This document shows positions 1,317-30,335 of a stretch of DNA of 32,000 bases, piece after piece; position 1 is the stretch's first letter; the number at the start of each line of letters is the position of its first letter. This DNA comes from Dehalococcoidia bacterium. Lineage in GTDB: Bacteria; Chloroflexota; Dehalococcoidia; SHYB01. The notes below the pieces were generated by a model. The model made no database searches, was not told the DNA's origin, and saw nothing but the letters and a program-made list of their open reading frames with translations. The position numbers and the translations under genes were made by a program. Where the stretch lies: assembly GCA_963666265.2 (NCBI GenBank), contig CAXXHW010000001.1, forward strand, positions 566,088-598,087, given 5' to 3'.

Positions 1317-1440
1317 GCGTCGGTATCCTTCACTAGCCTCTCCGAAGACTGCTCAGAAAGGGTTGTCCACGTGCGGCTTGACACGGGGCCTATGGTACCA
1401 TGAGCCGCCTTTTGCTGACTACGGGCCATGCGATCATCAG

Positions 1441-1507
1441 GCGAGGGAGTAATCGGCATCCTTCTCTCCTACGCCGCCAGGCACAATGCCAGCGGGCGCT
1501 GCCCGCT
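1441..1507 (+). repeat. GC-rich palindromic intergenic repeat (core GCCAGCGGGCGCTGCCCGC), copy 1
   Basis: gcgagggagtaatcggcatccttctctcctacgccgccaggcacaatgccagcgggcgctgcccgcta aligns with the copies at 27916-28033 and 28526-28641. Core forms hairpin GCGGGC-gct-GCCCGC. Its last bases (cta at 1506-1508) are the TAG stop of bcp on the reverse strand. Confidence 0.85.
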
Positions 1508-6185: not shown

Positions 6186-7748
6186 GTGAATGACGCCATA
6201 ACCCTGGAAATCTTCAAGAGCCTGTTCTCCTCCATAGCGGAGGAGATGGGGGCGGTACTGGGCCGAACGGGATTCTCGCCGAACATCAAGGAGCGGCAGG
6301 ACTACTCCTGCGCCCTCTTCGACGGCGAAGGTCGCATGGTGGCGCAGGCGGCCCATCTGCCCGTGCACCTGGGCTCCATGCCTGCCTCCGTCGCGGCGGC
6401 CATCGACCACGTCGACCTGGGACCGGGCGATATCGCCATCCTGAACGACCCCTTCCTCGGCGGGACGCACCTGCCGGACATCACCCTGGTCGCTCCCGTG
6501 CACGCCGGAACGCGGCTCATCGGCTACGTCGCGAACCGCGCTCACCATGCCGATGTCGGCGGAGCCTCTCCCGGCTCGATGCCCTTGTCGACAGAGCTGT
6601 ACCAGGAGGGGCTGATTATCCCACCCGTGAAGTTGGCCGAGGGTGGGCGGATAGACGAAAAGCTCGTCACCCTGCTCTGCCGCAACGTGCGTACGCCCGA
6701 GGAGCGGCGCGGGGACCTGGAGGCGCAAATCGCCTGCGCCGGCGTTGGTAGCCGGCGGCTGGTGGAGGTCGCCGAGAAGTACGGCCTCGACGAGATAGGG
6801 CACGAGATGCAGCGCCTGATTGACTACTCCGAGGCCATGACCAGAGATGCGCTCCGTAAAATCCCCGACGGGGCCTATTCCTTCGAAGATGTCTTGGACG
6901 ATGACGGTCTATCGAACGAGCCGGTAAGGATACAGGTGCGGATCTCGATCGACGGCGACACCCTCACCGCCGACTTCGCGGGGAGCGCTCCGGCCTCCGA
7001 CGGCCCGGTGAACGCCGTGCTTGCCGTCACCGAGTCCGCCGTCCTCTACGTCGTACGGTGCATCGCCGGGGAGGCCGTTCCAGCAAACCACGGCTGCATG
7101 ATACCCCTGACGGTGCTCGCCCCTCGGGGTAGTATCGTCAACGCCTTGCCGCCCCACGCCGTCTCCGCCGGCAACGTGGAGACCGGGCAGCATATCGTCG
7201 ACGTGCTTCTGGGGGCCATGGCTCAGGCCCTTCCGGACCGGATACCCGCCGCCAGCCAGGGGACGATGAACAACCTGGCCTTTGGAGGCCGCGACCCCAT
7301 GCGGGAGCGGCCCTTCGCCTACTACGAGACCATCGCCGGGGGCATGGGGGCCAGGCCGGGCATGCCGGGTATCTCAGGCATACAGACCCATATGACCAAC
7401 ACCCTCAACACTCCCGTCGAGGCTCTGGAGTTTGAGCTGCCCATACGCGTCCGCGAGTACGCTATTCGGCGCGGGTCGGGCGGTCATGGCCGCTACGCAG
7501 GCGGGGATGGACTGCGGCGCAGCATCGAATTCCTGGCGGAGACCGACTTCACGGTCATCTCGGACAGGCGCCGGCGTGGGCCCTACGGCCTTGCTGGAGG
7601 GGAGGCGGGCTCGCCGGGTCGCAATCTGCTCACCCGGTCTGGGGCCTCGCGGCCTCGCCTGCTGCCTTCCAAGGCCCGTGTCGCCCTGGCGCCGGGGGAC
7701 GTGGTCACGGTGGAGACCCCAGGCGGCGGAGGATGGGGCGAGGCCTAG
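6186..7748 (+). CDS. hydantoinase/oxoprolinase family, B (HyuB-like) subunit
   Basis: 520 aa, GTG start. MNDAITLEIFKSLFSSIAEEMG, DYSCALFD, NDPF.GGTHLPD, ANRAHHADVGG are characteristic Hydantoinase_B blocks. Confidence 0.87.
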   Translation: MNDAITLEIFKSLFSSIAEEMGAVLGRTGFSPNIKERQDYSCALFDGEGRMVAQAAHLPVHLGSMPASVAAAIDHVDLGPGDIAILNDPFLGGTHLPDITLVAPVHAGTRLIGYVANRAHHADVGGASPGSMPLSTELYQEGLIIPPVKLAEGGRIDEKLVTLLCRNVRTPEERRGDLEAQIACAGVGSRRLVEVAEKYGLDEIGHEMQRLIDYSEAMTRDALRKIPDGAYSFEDVLDDDGLSNEPVRIQVRISIDGDTLTADFAGSAPASDGPVNAVLAVTESAVLYVVRCIAGEAVPANHGCMIPLTVLAPRGSIVNALPPHAVSAGNVETGQHIVDVLLGAMAQALPDRIPAASQGTMNNLAFGGRDPMRERPFAYYETIAGGMGARPGMPGISGIQTHMTNTLNTPVEALEFELPIRVREYAIRRGSGGHGRYAGGDGLRRSIEFLAETDFTVISDRRRRGPYGLAGGEAGSPGRNLLTRSGASRPRLLPSKARVALAPGDVVTVETPGGGGWGEA

Positions 7749-7828
7749 GCCCGCTTTTCCCGTAGGTGCGTGCCATGCTATGCCTCCCGTCCTTTCGCCG
7801 GCGCGGGTTACACCTCCTCCTTCGTCCA

Positions 7829-7873
7829 GGTCCGACTTTGTCCCGATGACGAATCGGGATGCAATCGGAGCTC
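7829..7873 (+). repeat. 45-nt hairpin element (core TCCCGAT-gacga-ATCGGGA), copy A
   Basis: gtccgactttgtcccgatgacgaatcgggatgcaatcggagctca is the reverse complement, with a few indels, of 9154-9202. Confidence 0.8.
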
Positions 7874-7914
7874 ATAACAACCACCGAACGGCCTTCGTGT
7901 TTTCTCGGTTGGGC

Positions 7915-7943
7915 ATGACTTTGCCACGGAATACCTTTATAAT
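7915..7943 (+). promoter_or_regulatory. sigma70-like promoter of the uORF/K+ channel unit (-35 ATGACT, 17 nt, -10 TATAAT)
   Basis: TATAAT at 7938-7943 and ATGACT at 7915-7920. The whole block is duplicated upstream of mscS, where the -35 reads GTGACA. Confidence 0.5.
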
Positions 7944-7975
7944 GGTTTTGAACTTTATTAAAATTGGTGGCCGCT

Positions 7976-8074
7976 ATGCCGGATGTGGACTTCAAATTCA
8001 ATCCAGCGAACATAGTCAACCGAGGAGGGACCATCGCACGGAAAGACACGGCTAGTGCGTACGGGGTGAGGTAA
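7976..8074 (+). CDS. 32-codon upstream ORF, a truncated paralog of the MscS N-terminus
   Basis: ATG at 7976 preceded by GGTGG. MPDVDFKFNPANIVNRGGTIARKDTASAYGVR; the first ~28 codons are homologous at DNA level to mscS codons 1-28 (MPDVDFTFNVAGMVNRGVTVAI...). TAA at 8072-8074 lies 1 nt before the channel GTG at 8076. Below the ORF-track size cutoff. Confidence 0.4.
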   Translation: MPDVDFKFNPANIVNRGGTIARKDTASAYGVR

Positions 8075-8075
8075 C

Positions 8076-9103
8076 GTGTTCGTTCTTGTGATCTTCCGGC
8101 GAGTAGTGGCAAGGGCTGCCAAGGGGAATCCGCGAGTTCTTCTACTCCTCTCAGTCGCCCTGCTCTTCCTCGGCTCCGCGGCCATCTACTTTGTCGAGCA
8201 TACCAGGAACCAGGATTTCGCAACCTTCGGGGAGAGTGTCTGGTGGGCGATAGTAACGACGTCCACAGTGGGTTATGGGGACAAGGTCCCTATCACGGTC
8301 CCGGGCCGGGCCATCGCATCGGTTACTATGATCGGGGGTCCTATCCTGCTGGCATCGCTTGCAGGGGCGGTAGCTGTCCTTGTGTATGAAGAATGGCGAA
8401 GGGTGGTGACAGGAATGTCCCAGGTCGTCTCGAAGAAGCACATTTTGGTCTGCGGATGGAACCCCAGGGCGAAGGACGCCATTGAAGAACTCCGGTTAAG
8501 CCGAAGGTTCCGCAGCTGGCCCATCACCATAATTGACGATCGGATCGACACCAAGCCCATCGGGAATGGAAGGTCACCTTTGTCCATGGCAGTCCGGCGG
8601 ATTCCGGCGTGTTGGAACGGGCGAATACTCGCGAGGCGGCGTTCGTCTTTGCGGAAGATGCAACACCCGCGGCTGACCAAAGGACGGCCCTCACCGTCCT
8701 GGCGATCAAGTATCTCAATCCTTCGATCCAGTGCAGCGCTGAACTGAATGACGCCAAGAATGAGCCCCATCTTCGCCGCGCCGGTTGTGACGTCGTGGTG
8801 AATACCGGGAACCTGACGAGCAAGCTGCTGTCCCTCTCCATTGAAAATCCCGCCATTAATCAGGTTGTCAGTGAGCTGGTATCCCGTACTCGCGGCAATG
8901 AGGTCTACCGCGTTGAATCTCCACCCAGATACTCCGACGGGCCTTTTTACGAGGCTTTCCAGGCTTTGAAGCGCTCACACAACATGATCATCATTGGGGT
9001 TGAACGGGAAGACCAGAGCCTGATCAACCCTTCGGCCGATTTCGCTTTGCGACCTGGCGACGCCTTCTTGGTCATCTCGGAACAGTCTCCCGTTCTAGAT
9101 TAG
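8076..9103 (+). pseudogene. MthK-like two-TM K+ channel with RCK (TrkA-N plus TrkA-C) domains, interrupted by a 1-nt frameshift near 8568-8572
   Basis: Track ORF 8076..8747 gives TM1, pore helix plus filter WWAIVTTSTVGYGD, TM2 and the start of the Rossmann domain (HILVCGWNPRAKDAIEEL). After ..DTKPIGNG it degenerates into Arg/Ser-rich nonsense. Frame +2 (track ORF 8609..9103, open from 8537) continues with KVTFVHGSPADSGVLERANTREAAFVFAED... and a TrkA-C domain. Adding one base in ggaagg (e.g. gga-aag) gives continuous ..PIGNGKVTFVHG.. Confidence 0.8.
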
Positions 9104-9153
9104 GACAGTTAGTAGCTCCTCCTGCGCTGGCTCGCAGTTACGCCAGATGGGCC

Positions 9154-9202
9154 TGAGCTTCCGATTTGCATCCCGATTCGTCATCGGGACGAAGTCGGGA
9201 CT
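9154..9202 (-). repeat. 45-nt hairpin element, copy B (inverted relative to copy A)
   Basis: tgagcttccgatttgcatcccgattcgtcatcgggacgaagtcgggac is the reverse complement of 7829-7873, with 2-3 small differences. Confidence 0.8.
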
Positions 9203-9243
9203 TGTCGGAAGACGCCTTCTTTTTGGAATAGCCTCGGTTAGGC

Positions 9244-9272
9244 GTGACATCGATGCGGAATTCATATATAAT
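9244..9272 (+). promoter_or_regulatory. sigma70-like promoter of mscS (-35 GTGACA, 17 nt, -10 TATAAT)
   Basis: GTGACA at 9244-9249 and TATAAT at 9267-9272. Paralogous to 7915-7943. Confidence 0.55.
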
Positions 9273-9305
9273 AGGTTTTGAACTTTTTTGAAATTGGTGG
9301 CTGCT

Positions 9306-10190
9306 ATGCCGGATGTGGACTTCACATTCAATGTAGCGGGTATGGTCAACCGAGGAGTCACCGTCGCCATTATCCTGGTGGCGACCTGGATCCTCGTGAG
9401 AATTGTGAGACGGGTGATCACAAGGTTGATAACCGCTCAGATTCCGAAGTTGCGAGCGGAATCGCCGGAGGAGCTGGCCTCCCGTTCGCATACCCTGAGC
9501 GCGGCGATCAGTCAGACCGTCGGCACCGTCATTTGGATCATCGCCGGGATGATGGTCCTGAGCGAAGCCGGGATCAACATCGGTCCGCTGGTGGCGGCCC
9601 TTGGACTGGCCTCCCTGGCGTTGGGCTTCGCAGCCCAGGGGATTATCCGTGACTACATTCATGGCATGTACATCCTTCTGGAGGACTGGTATCGGGTGGG
9701 GGAGGTGGCCATCGTGGCGGGGATCGGCGGCCTGGTGGTGGATATCACTCTCCGGAGGACTGTCCTCCGAGACCTCGATGGGGTGTGGCACAACATCCCC
9801 AACAGCAAGATAGAGATGGCCAGCAACGTCACCAGGGACATGGCCCGCATCAATCTGAACATTGAAGTCGCTTACGGGGAGAACCTGGACAACGTGATCC
9901 GGGTCATCAACGAGGTCGGCGTCGAGCTCAAAGCGGATGAGACCCACGGACCAAACCTATTGACTACCCCCAGGGTTGAGGGTGTGGACAAGCTGGGCTC
10001 GTCCGGTATCGAGATCAAGATTCTCGGCGATACCAAGGCCGGTACCCATTGGGGGCTAACTCGCGAGCTAAGGAAACGACTCAAAGACCGGTTCGACGAA
10101 GAGGGGATCGAGATTCCCTGGCCCCACGCAAAGGTTTACTTTGGTGACGAGCTCCGTCACGCCGAGAGTGTCATGGGGGACCGCCGCTAG
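9306..10190 (+). CDS. mscS: small-conductance mechanosensitive channel (MscS family)
   Basis: Track ORF starts at TTG 9288. ATG 9306, with GGTGG 6 nt upstream, is preferred. TM helices (VTVAIILVATWILV, VGTVIWIIAGMMVL, LGLASLALGFAAQG) are followed by the MscS beta-domain block GEVAIVAGIGGLVVDITLRRTVLRDLDGVWHNIPNSKI. Confidence 0.88.
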   Translation: MPDVDFTFNVAGMVNRGVTVAIILVATWILVRIVRRVITRLITAQIPKLRAESPEELASRSHTLSAAISQTVGTVIWIIAGMMVLSEAGINIGPLVAALGLASLALGFAAQGIIRDYIHGMYILLEDWYRVGEVAIVAGIGGLVVDITLRRTVLRDLDGVWHNIPNSKIEMASNVTRDMARINLNIEVAYGENLDNVIRVINEVGVELKADETHGPNLLTTPRVEGVDKLGSSGIEIKILGDTKAGTHWGLTRELRKRLKDRFDEEGIEIPWPHAKVYFGDELRHAESVMGDRR

Positions 10191-10291
10191 CGACCGGCTT
10201 GACGCCTTCCCATGGCATGATACTGAAGAAGGCCTGCCTTGAGCTCGTCGTAGGGGGGCGCCCATCAAGGGCCTTCATCCATTCCTTGTCC

Positions 10292-10512
10292 TCTTCCCCT
10301 TGATAGGGGAGAGTGGCCTTGCACAAGATGTCATTCTGAGTCCTGACGTGTCGGGACGAAGAATCTGGGGTGGGGCAGACTTCACCCCCATCCTAACCTC
10401 CCCCCTTCAAGGGGGAAGGGACTCATCCCCAGACCCTTCGGCTTCGCTCAGGGTGACACAGCATTTCTCACTTTTTGTGCAAAGCCGCGGGAGAGATAGA
10501 GAGGGGGTGTTT
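10292..10512 (+). repeat. MITE-like composite intergenic repeat, copy A
   Basis: Shares with 13220-13428 the blocks gcacaagatgtcattctgag, gaatctgggg and ccccagacccttcggcttcgctcagggtgaca. Near-terminal inverted match ggccttgcacaa / ttgtgcaaagcc. Internal hairpins TCCCCT-tgat-AGGGGA and CCCCC-ttcaa-GGGGG. Sits between convergent mscS and orf122. Confidence 0.75.
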
Positions 10513-13219: not shown

Positions 13220-13428
13220 CCCCCGTCCTATCCTTCCCCCGGCCCTGCACAAGATGTCATTCTGAGGAGCGCAGCGACGACAGAATCTGGGGGGGCAGAT
13301 TCAACAGAAAGCCCTCCACCTCCCCAGACCCTTCGGCTTCGCTCAGGGTGACCTGTTCATACGCTCAAGGTGACACATGATTTCTCAAAGCCCCGCAAGA
13401 GGGGAAGGGGTTACCCTCTCCCCCGTCC
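13220..13428 (+). repeat. MITE-like composite intergenic repeat, copy B, bounded by 9-bp direct repeats
   Basis: CCCCCGTCC occurs at 13220-13228 and 13420-13428, exactly 200 nt apart. Inverted CCTTCCCC (13232-13239) / GGGGAAGG (13401-13408) lie just inside. Internal blocks are shared with copy A. The last codons and TAA of the 2-HADH-like gene lie inside the right end. Confidence 0.7.
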
Positions 13429-27915: not shown

Positions 27916-28033
27916 AGGATGCTTTGAACCCTGGCGTAACCAGGTCTCTTGACGGAGGTGGGGTAAGGCCAGGAAGCGATCGGCATCATTCTCTCCCGCG
28001 CCGCCAGGCGCCTTGCCAGCGGGCGCTGCCCGC
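27916..28033 (+). repeat. GC-rich palindromic intergenic repeat, long copy 3
   Basis: aggatgctttgaaccc...ctcttgacggaggtggggtaaggcc...cggcatcattctctcccgcgccgccaggcgccttgccagcgggcgctgcccgcc aligns over ~115 nt with 28526-28641. Its end abuts the cta at 28034-28036, the reverse-strand TAG stop of the FmdB gene. Confidence 0.85.
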
Positions 28034-28525: not shown

Positions 28526-28641
28526 AGGATGCTTCAGGGGGGGGTGTTCAGGACTCTTGACGGATGCGGGGTAAAGCGAGGGTGTGAGCCGCATCCTTCT
28601 TCCTGCGCCGTCAGGCGGAATGCCAGCGGGCGTTGCCCGCC
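28526..28641 (+). repeat. GC-rich palindromic intergenic repeat, long copy 4
   Basis: aggatgcttcagggg...ctcttgacggatgcggggtaaagcgagggtgtgagccgcatccttcttcctgcgccgtcaggcggaatgccagcgggcgttgcccgcc. Same orientation as copy 3, so the FmdB gene is bracketed by direct copies. Confidence 0.85.
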
Positions 28642-30205: not shown

Positions 30206-30335
30206 CGGGCGGGCAGCGCCCGCTGGCATGCGCCTTACGGCGGGGGAGAGGCACCAGAGCAGGTCCTTCGACAAGCTCAGGGCGAACGGGAGGCGGGCAG
30301 CGGCGGGTAGTACCCGCTGGCAAATCATGCTCGCA
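30205..30335 (-). repeat. GC-rich palindromic repeat, copies 5 and 6 (opposite orientation), separated by a ccttcgacaagctcagggcgaac block
   Basis: TAGcgggcgggcagcgcccgctggcatgcgccttacggcgggggagagg begins at the acyl-CoA dehydrogenase TAG (30203-30205). A second degenerate unit, ggcgggcagcggcgggtagtacccgctggcaaatc, lies at ~30291-30335. Confidence 0.75.

What the first reader, a model, noticed from the sequence alone, without database searches (positions are those of the whole stretch)
7890..9368. The same ~145-nt promoter/leader/5'-CDS module is duplicated in front of two different ion-channel genes
Region 7890-8038 (upstream of the K+ channel) and region 9213-9368 (upstream of and into mscS) align with small indels. 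The shared elements, in order, are:
- gccttc..ctcggtt[g/a]ggc[a/g]tgac
- cggaat..tataat
- ggttttgaacttt..aaattggtggc[c/t]gctATGccggatgtggacttca[a/c]attcaat
- gtcaaccgaggag

Both copies keep a -35-like hexamer (ATGACT / GTGACA), a 17-nt spacer, a perfect TATAAT, a GGTGG Shine-Dalgarno and the ATG. The second copy is the genuine mscS start. The first looks like a captured copy of the mscS control region now driving the K+ channel.

This would place a K+ efflux/uptake channel and an osmotic-release valve under identical transcriptional and translational initiation signals.
Basis: seen in the sequence. Interest (0 to 1): 0.65.

Follow-up and report, generated by a model that had tools for sequence, protein, structure and literature searches.

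The report
Duplicated mscS promoter before broken K+ channel
A Chloroflexota genome has copied the promoter, leader and first 21 codons of its mechanosensitive-channel gene and placed the copy in front of a newly acquired potassium-channel gene; this is an ordinary case of promoter capture, and the channel gene is now frameshifted.

Summary
The repeat is real. Window 7904-8037 and 9233-9367 align at 111/135 (82%), far above shuffled controls. Both copies carry a -35-like hexamer, a 17-nt spacer, TATAAT, GGTGG and ATG.

Orthologous mscS loci in three related Chloroflexota contigs keep the same TATAAT-leader-ATG layout and have no K+ channel upstream. Copy B is therefore the native mscS control region. 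Copy A is a duplicate made within this lineage.

- **Leader ORF.** The ATG of copy A opens a 32-codon remnant ORF (7976-8074). It stops 1 nt before the channel's own GTG (8076), which has its own Shine-Dalgarno. Only the transcription signals are shared.
- **Broken channel gene.** The gene has a 1-nt deletion (about 8562-8575) and a 6-nt deletion (about 8640). The frameshift is also present in an independent assembly that is 99.9% identical. The gene is probably a pseudogene.
- **Inverted palindrome.** A roughly 55-nt palindromic element lies upstream of each copy, in opposite orientation (7818-7873 and 9153-9212).

I found no RNA family match and no conserved leader structure. I found no further copies, but the rest of the genome could not be searched.

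Verdict: promoter capture by local duplication, a known kind of event. Interest is modest.

The parts
6186..7748 (+). Hydantoinase B/oxoprolinase gene, the upstream neighbour (context only)
   Evidence: Pfam PF02538, E = 3e-209. A Hydantoinase_B gene also lies upstream of mscS in relative L138, with three other genes between them.
7818..7873 (.). Palindromic element X, left copy. Nested hairpin TCCGA..TCCCGAT-GACGA-ATCGGGA..TCGGA.
   Evidence: It is the inverted repeat I1 partner of 9166-9212 (47 nt, 85%). The core of 39 nt is 95% identical. Inverted Smith-Waterman score 71 against shuffles of 18.4 +/- 2.3. RNA fold -22.5 kcal/mol, z = -2.5.
7890..8038 (+). Copy A of the mscS control module. 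It holds a -35-like ATGACT (7915-7920), TATAAT (7938-7943), GGTGG (7966-7970), ATG (7976) and 21 mscS-derived codons.
   Evidence: It is closest to copy B (83%) and 57-61% identical to the orthologous regions.
7976..8074 (+). Remnant leader ORF of 32 codons, MPDVDFKFNPANIVNRGGTIARKDTASAYGVR*. The first 21 codons come from mscS. The TAA stop lies 1 nt before the channel start.
   Evidence: Most differences from copy B are non-synonymous, as read from the codons.
8076..9103 (+). K+ channel gene with a two-transmembrane TVGYGD pore and an RCK/TrkA domain. It is disrupted by a 1-nt deletion at about 8562-8575 (ORFs 8076-8747 and 8609-9103) and a 6-nt deletion at about 8640.
   Evidence: Pfam Ion_trans_2, TrkA_N and TrkA_C. 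Intact homologues are 339-347 aa. Indels were located against L005, L006 and L140. The frameshift is shared by L001.
9153..9212 (.). Palindromic element X, right copy, inverted relative to the left copy
   Evidence: RNA fold -29 kcal/mol, z = -2.4. No T-tract terminator was found.
9213..9368 (+). Copy B, the native mscS control region. It holds GTGACA (9244-9249), TATAAT (9267-9272), GGTGG (9296-9300), ATG (9306) and codons 1-21.
   Evidence: TTATAAT and the ATG position are conserved in L002, L003 and L138.
9306..10190 (+). mscS, an intact 294-aa small-conductance mechanosensitive channel
   Evidence: Pfam MS_channel_1st, 2nd and 3rd. It is 72-75% identical to the orthologues P0002-P0004, of which P0002 and P0004 are 294 aa.

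Best explanation
Within this Chloroflexota lineage a K+ channel gene arrived between the hydantoinase gene and mscS. It brought only about 38 nt of its own upstream sequence.

A copy of the mscS 5' control region now sits directly in front of it. The copy comprises the sigma-70-type promoter, a roughly 26-nt leader, the Shine-Dalgarno and the first 21 codons. It probably also includes the upstream palindrome X.

This is promoter capture by local duplication: the promoter of the downstream gene is reused for the new upstream gene.

**Shown**
- The duplication, and its direction (copy B native, copy A derived).
- The channel gene is absent from this position in relatives.
- The channel gene is damaged.

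**Inferred**
- The copy A promoter starts transcription near 7950. It produces an mRNA whose first ORF is the 32-codon mscS remnant.
- The channel is translated from its own GTG 8076. This happens either through its own SD (GGTGAGG) or by termination-reinitiation, because the remnant stop is 1 nt upstream.
- Read-through past the X hairpin would give mscS a second, distal promoter.
- The -10-to-codon-6 core is much better conserved than its flanks. This suggests copy A was kept working for some time.
- The 1-nt and 6-nt deletions indicate the channel has since become a pseudogene.
- The exact rearrangement path is not resolved. Candidates are a tandem duplication of the Cit+ / Li & Bock type followed by loss of the first channel copy, a one-step template-switch duplication-insertion, or insertion of a 150-nt promoter copy.
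For: - **Repeat is real:**. It is reproduced in the independent assembly L001.
- **Promoter hexamers:** the spacing and both hexamers were scored as promoter-like sites.
- **Copy B is native:** TTATAAT about 32 nt upstream of the ATG is conserved in the mscS orthologues L002, L003 and L138.
- **Duplication is lineage-specific:** copies A and B are 83% identical to each other and 56-61% identical to the orthologous regions. Of the 23 differences, relatives side with A at 11 and with B at 8. Both copies therefore descend from one ancestor inside this lineage.
- **Channel is a newcomer here:** relatives keep the downstream synteny (HMG-CoA_red_N, aldolase, FGGY) but have no channel gene upstream of mscS.
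- **Channel moves around:** its homologues sit in unrelated contexts with no module and no X.
- **Native channel start:** GTG 8076 aligns with the homologues' N-termini. The remnant ORF stops 1 nt before it.
- **Uneven conservation:** 53/56 in the core against 58/78 in the flanks, p = 0.002.
- **Experimental precedent for this geometry:** the downstream gene's promoter is captured by duplication, with junctions inside coding regions (PMC6614815). Promoter reuse is widespread in prokaryotes (PMC3575422).
Against: - The channel gene is frameshifted in both assemblies and lacks two otherwise conserved residues. No benefit of the captured promoter can be shown today.
- There are no expression data, and the promoter hexamers are only consensus matches.
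- X is inverted between the copies. A simple direct duplication does not predict this.
- No trace of a first channel copy remains, although a plain tandem duplication would leave one.
- The high identity of the core could also come from a gene-conversion tract.
- The rest of the genome could not be searched, so further copies cannot be excluded.
Confidence: 0.7

Rival explanations
1. Copy A is a neutral scar. A rearrangement that brought in or moved the channel gene happened to duplicate about 150-220 nt of the mscS 5' region. Copy A never mattered for expression, and the whole channel segment is decaying.
For: - The channel gene is frameshifted and carries a 6-nt deletion.
- The remnant ORF differs from mscS almost only by non-synonymous changes.
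- The copies differ by 17-18%.
Against: - After about 18% divergence, TATAAT, the TGAC of the -35, GGTGG, the ATG and the first six codons are all unchanged.
- The -10-to-codon-6 core is 95% identical against 74% in the flanks.
- In the promoter part, copy A keeps more ancestral states than copy B does.
Confidence: 0.2
2. The module, the palindrome X, or both belong to a dispersed repeat family. This would be a mobile promoter, MITE or REP-like element with more copies elsewhere in the genome, not a one-off local duplication.
For: - X occurs in both orientations.
- An X-like hairpin with similar flanks lies in an unrelated intergenic region of another Chloroflexota MAG (L011), next to a GATGTCATGCTGAG motif. 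That motif also heads another repeat in the window.
- The window holds several other intergenic repeat families.
Against: - Only two copies of the module and of X occur in the 32-kb window. None occurs in the nine related loci examined.
- The module includes 21 codons of mscS and is orthologous to the mscS 5' regions of relatives. This marks it as gene-derived.
- Exact-pattern scans of public genomes and metagenomes found no module relatives.
Confidence: 0.08
3. The shared sequence is a conserved cis-regulatory RNA, such as a leader, riboswitch or thermometer, that controls both channel genes after transcription.
For: The best-conserved stretch is the 5' UTR plus the first codons. The copy B leader folds better than shuffled sequence, z = -2.5.
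Against: - No Rfam match at the gathering threshold or at E <= 1.
- The copy A leader folds worse than shuffled sequence, z = +1.6.
- The consensus fold of five leaders gives only -6.3 kcal/mol, with 9 scattered pairs.
- The predicted UTR is only about 26 nt.
Confidence: 0.03

Closest known systems
Promoter capture by tandem duplication. Examples are Cit+ evolution in the E. coli long-term experiment, as summarised in PMC3575422, and activation of a transferred ble-GFP gene in Li & Bock 2019 (PMC6614815).
   Same: - The promoter and 5' end of the downstream gene end up in front of the upstream gene.
- The junction lies inside the coding region of the promoter donor, so a short remnant ORF precedes the recipient gene.
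- The recipient is a newly arrived gene.
   Different: - A plain tandem duplication would leave a first copy of the channel gene upstream of copy A. None is present.
- The palindrome X is inverted between the copies.
- The copies are old (about 18% diverged), not recent.
- The recipient gene is now broken.
Putative mobile promoters (Matus-Garcia, Nijveen & van Passel 2012; commentary PMC3575422)
   Same: Highly similar upstream sequences lie in front of non-homologous genes within one genome, and no known mobile element is involved.
   Different: - The homologous stretch sits at different distances from the two annotated starts (-186..-38 for the channel, -93..+62 for mscS) and runs into a coding region. 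The authors say their screen excludes such cases.
- Only two adjacent copies are known.
REP, REPIN, Correia or ERIC-type palindromic intergenic repeats (for element X only)
   Same: X is a short imperfect palindrome in intergenic DNA. It is found in either orientation and lies next to promoters.
   Different: - Only two copies are seen, with one X-like sequence in another MAG.
- No defined ends or target-site duplication.
- No genome-wide census was possible.
MthK-type prokaryotic K+ channels (two-transmembrane pore plus RCK) and MscS-family channels
   Same: Domain content and the TVGYGD filter match for the channel. All three MscS Pfam domains are present in mscS.
   Different: The channel reading frame is interrupted inside the RCK Rossmann fold.

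Membership tests
Promoter capture by local duplication | Two homologous copies of a promoter-bearing segment in one genome, in front of non-homologous genes | tested here: met
   82% identity over 135 nt. The downstream genes are a K+ channel and MscS, which belong to different Pfam families.
Promoter capture by local duplication | One copy is the native control region of its gene, shown by orthology | tested here: met
   Copy B aligns with the mscS 5' regions of L002, L003 and L138, including TTATAAT and the ATG.
Promoter capture by local duplication | The recipient gene lacks this arrangement in relatives | tested here: met
   There is no channel gene upstream of mscS in L002, L003, L138 or L139. 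There is no module upstream of the channel homologues in L004-L007 or L140.
Promoter capture by local duplication | The captured copy actually initiates transcription of the recipient gene | not testable with these tools
   Only consensus matches are available. This needs transcription start mapping.
Plain tandem duplication (Cit+ type) | Head-to-tail repeat of the whole unit, including a first copy of the recipient gene | tested here: not met
   The sequence upstream of copy A is X and then the hydantoinase gene. No channel remnant is present, and there is no similarity between 7749-7830 and 9095-9160. A later deletion would have to be assumed.
Putative mobile promoters (PMC3575422 criteria) | At least 80% identity over at least 50 nt within -150..-50 of both translation starts, with non-paralogous coding sequences | tested here: not met
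   The -150..-50 intervals are 7926-8026 for the channel and 9156-9256 for mscS. Their homologous parts barely overlap, and the repeat extends into the mscS coding region (coordinates; criteria).
MITE or REP-like element (module or X) | Multiple dispersed copies with defined terminal inverted repeats and target-site duplications | tested here: inconclusive
   - Only two copies are present in the window, and none in the related loci.
- There is one X-like hit in L011.
- The 8-nt CTCGGTTG / CAACCGAG pair inside the module has its right arm in conserved mscS codons and is not kept in orthologues.
Cis-regulatory RNA (Rfam family or conserved structure) | A covariance-model match, or a conserved fold with covariation | tested here: not met
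   No Rfam match. The consensus fold is negligible.
MscS family | Transmembrane helices 2/3, beta domain and C-terminal domain in an intact ORF | tested here: met
   PF21088, PF00924 and PF21082 all score above their cut-offs. Orthologues are 72-75% identical.
RCK-gated two-transmembrane K+ channel (MthK-like) | Pore with a T[VI]GYGD filter plus an RCK domain in one intact reading frame | tested here: not met
   The domains are present, but the frame is broken by a 1-nt deletion, and a 6-nt deletion removes two conserved residues.

The most novel reading that the evidence does not exclude
The palindrome X together with the promoter forms a portable regulatory cassette. X has four TCCCGA-type half-sites spaced about 11-13 bp apart, centred about 65-70 nt upstream of the -35 in both copies. 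It would be the operator of an unknown regulator, working in either orientation. It was copied with the promoter, so the K+ channel and MscS would answer to the same signal, perhaps an osmotic one. Alternatively, the two inverted X copies are the ends of a small non-autonomous element that carried the channel gene to this site.
Probability: 0.08. Interest if true: 0.5.

Novelty: new member of a known kind. Interest (0 to 1): 0.3.

Why it matters
This is a clean natural example of how a newly arrived gene gets a promoter: a local copy is made of the neighbouring gene's control region, complete with a remnant leader ORF. It comes from a poorly studied phylum (Chloroflexota), and orthologous loci make the direction of the event clear.

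It also identifies a probable real sigma-70-type promoter and start codon for mscS in these organisms.

It does not reveal a new mechanism. Because the channel gene is broken, it says little about joint control of K+ flux and osmotic release.

Tried and rejected
1. **Exact-protein look-ups.** Three window proteins were not on record: MscS from the ATG, hydantoinase B and the AP endonuclease. Only the TTG-started MscS (P0001) led to the sister contig. I could therefore not extend the genome beyond the window or search it for further copies.
2. **Genome-collection scan with the X core.** It gave ten hits in unrelated phyla. Two lie in RNase P-like sequence of Chloroflexia MAGs, and only L011 has similar flanks. 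The source genome is not in that collection.
3. **Metagenome scan with ATGCCGGATGTGGACTTCA.** All hits I listed were unrelated coding sequence, mostly a gut-bacterial gene encoding ..FMPDVDFIIDIGGQDMKCFKI. This scan was wasted.
4. **Rfam at two thresholds.** Nothing relevant was found.
5. **Consensus folding of five leaders.** No conserved structure.
6. **Terminator scan.** No T-tract terminator at X.
7. **Plasmid and phage collections.** No match.
8. **The CTCGGTTG / CAACCGAG inverted pair as the ends of a mobile element.** Rejected. The right arm is conserved coding sequence, and the pair is not conserved in orthologues.
9. **Programmed frameshift in the channel gene.** Rejected. I saw no slippery heptamer at the site by eye, and the full-length homologues (339-347 aa) are single ORFs.
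10. **X as the native 3' flank of the channel gene.** Rejected. It is absent downstream of the homologues.
11. **Short direct repeats flanking X as target-site duplications.** CCTTCGT around the left copy and ACGCC around the right copy are too short, and they differ between the copies, so no conclusion is possible.
Full report
**1.

- The repeat finder reports 7944-8037 and 9274-9367 as a 94-nt direct repeat at 86% identity.
- A gapped local alignment extends it to 7904-8037 vs 9233-9367, 111/135 identical. The score is 148, against 18.4 +/- 2.3 for 200 shuffles.
- Weaker similarity (GCCTTC, a T-rich run, CTCGGTT) carries it to about 7890 / 9213.
- The promoter scan picks out ATGACT-17-TATAAT (7915-7943) and GTGACA-17-TATAAT (9244-9272) as two of only three sigma-70-like sites in 2.8 kb.
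- GGTGG lies 5 nt before an ATG in each copy, at 7976 and 9306.
- An independently assembled contig of the same organism (L001, 99.9% identical over 20 kb) has the same structure. It has one SNP in copy A, at 7954.

**2. The genes**

- ORF 9306-10190 is an intact MscS-family channel with all three Pfam domains.
- ORFs 8076-8747 and 8609-9103 together are a K+ channel with a two-transmembrane TVGYGD pore and an RCK/TrkA domain, split by a frameshift.
- Full-length homologues are single ORFs of 339-347 aa, 66-74% identical.
- Against three of them the window gene lacks 1 nt at about 8562-8575 and 6 nt at about 8640. The second deletion removes two residues conserved in the other sequences that cover that stretch.
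- The frameshift is also in L001. The only indel between the two assemblies lies elsewhere, at 10253. All other large genes in the window are intact. The channel gene is therefore most likely a real pseudogene, though a systematic sequencing error cannot be fully excluded.

**3. Which copy is ancestral**

MscS homologues point to Chloroflexota, with names such as Dehalococcoidia. Three related contigs carry mscS orthologues at 72-75% protein identity.
- L002 and L138 keep the downstream synteny: HMG-CoA_red_N, class II aldolase and FGGY kinase.
- L138 also has a hydantoinase B gene upstream.
- None has a K+ channel next to mscS.

Their mscS 5' regions align with both window copies. TTATAAT sits about 32 nt upstream of an ATG that starts MPDV/MAEV/MPDF, and L002 and L003 also share GCRTGACTTT at the -35 position. 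This supports TATAAT as the working -10, ATG 9306 as the true start, and copy B as the native control region.

Copies A and B are 83% identical to each other but only 56-61% identical to the orthologous regions. The 23 differences split 11:8 between A-ancestral and B-ancestral states. The duplication therefore happened inside this lineage, and both copies have drifted since.

**4. How copy A joins the channel gene**

- mscS homology stops at 8038, which is codon 21.
- The next 38 nt resemble the native upstream region of the channel homologues only faintly.
- GTG 8076 aligns with the homologues' N-termini.
- The ATG of copy A therefore opens a 32-codon ORF, MPDVDFKFNPANIVNRGGTIARKDTASAYGVR. 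Its TAA (8072-8074) lies 1 nt before the channel GTG, which is preceded by GGTGAGG.
- The two genes can share a promoter type, but not a translation start.
- The differences between the remnant and mscS codons are almost all non-synonymous, so the peptide itself is not conserved.

**5. Conservation within the repeat is uneven**

Identity is 53/56 from the -10 through codon 6 and 58/78 in the flanks. Fisher p = 0.002, on a partition chosen after looking at the data. This fits selection on the initiation signals of both copies, or a gene-conversion patch.

**6.

A roughly 55-nt nested palindrome (X) lies upstream of each copy, at 7818-7873 and 9153-9212, in opposite orientation.
- 47 nt are 85% complementary, with a 39-nt core at 95%.
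- The hairpin core lies exactly 116 nt before the ATG in both copies (coordinates).
- X folds stably in both orientations, at -22.5 and -29 kcal/mol. It has no T-tract.
- It is absent from the orthologous mscS loci and from all channel-homologue loci.
- An X-like hairpin with similar flanks occurs in one other Chloroflexota MAG, in an unrelated intergenic region.

X could be a flipped part of the duplicated unit, a small dispersed palindromic repeat, an operator, or a terminator-like insulator. I could not decide between these.

**7. Origin of the arrangement**

The channel homologues lie in five different contexts. One is disrupted by an insertion sequence. One sits beside a different 366-aa MscS-family gene. 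The gene therefore moves around in these genomes.

The geometry is the downstream gene's promoter plus its 5' coding sequence placed in front of the upstream gene. This matches experimentally observed promoter capture by duplication with junctions inside coding regions (PMC6614815). It also matches the Cit+ case as summarised in PMC3575422.

A plain tandem duplication would leave a first channel copy upstream of copy A, and none remains. A later deletion, a one-step template-switch duplication-insertion, or insertion of just the 150-nt module all remain possible.

**8. Rejected readings**

- There is no Rfam family match.
- There is no conserved leader structure.
- There is no plasmid or phage relative.
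- Public-collection scans for further copies were uninformative.

**9. Verdict**

The duplication is real and is best read as a lineage-specific promoter capture, a known kind of event. It overstates the identity of the signals and misses that the captured promoter now fronts a damaged gene. The rest of the source genome could not be searched, and no expression data exist.

Noticed in passing
window 10315-10470 and 13241-13370: Two copies of an intergenic repeat with the layout GCACAAGATGTCATTCTGAG, a variable hairpin, GAAGAATCTGGGG, then TCCCCAGACCCTTCGGCTTCGCTCAGGGTGAC (32 nt, 100% identical). The GATGTCATGCTGAG head also occurs in Chloroflexota MAG locus L011 at 4554, just upstream of an X-like hairpin. 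The 11-mer TCGGGACGAAG is shared with the right X copy (9184) and with 10351.
   Followed up: partly
window 1439-1506, 27966-28033, 28549-28640, 30207-30229, 30302-30323: Another repeat family that ends in a GC-rich palindrome (TGCCAGCGGGCGCTGCCCGC). There are three direct copies of 68-92 nt and two inverted short copies.
   Followed up: no
L006 8156-11035 and L007 368-3247: In a related contig the K+ channel homologue (68% identical) lies downstream of a different 366-aa MscS-family gene and a 92-aa ORF. This is a second, independent case of a K+ channel sitting next to a mechanosensitive channel.
   Followed up: no
L004 8284-10761: The closest partial channel homologue (76% identical) is itself truncated at its 5' end next to a DDE_Tnp_1_4 insertion sequence, and it is frameshifted. 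The same 441-aa transposase lies just downstream of mscS in L003. Several other long-read contigs also show split channel genes (P0165, P0169, P0172). This may reflect low-coverage indel errors or repeated loss of the gene.
   Followed up: partly
L008 7387-7406 and L014 959-978: The 20-nt X core GTCCCGATGACGAATCGGGA also occurs, exactly, inside what looks by eye like RNase P RNA in two Chloroflexia/Chloroflexi MAGs. The flanks are unrelated to X, so this looks coincidental.
   Followed up: partly
window 10253: This is the only indel between the window and the sister assembly L001. It is a G-run length difference (GGGGGG vs GGGGGGG) in the intergenic region downstream of mscS.
   Followed up: no
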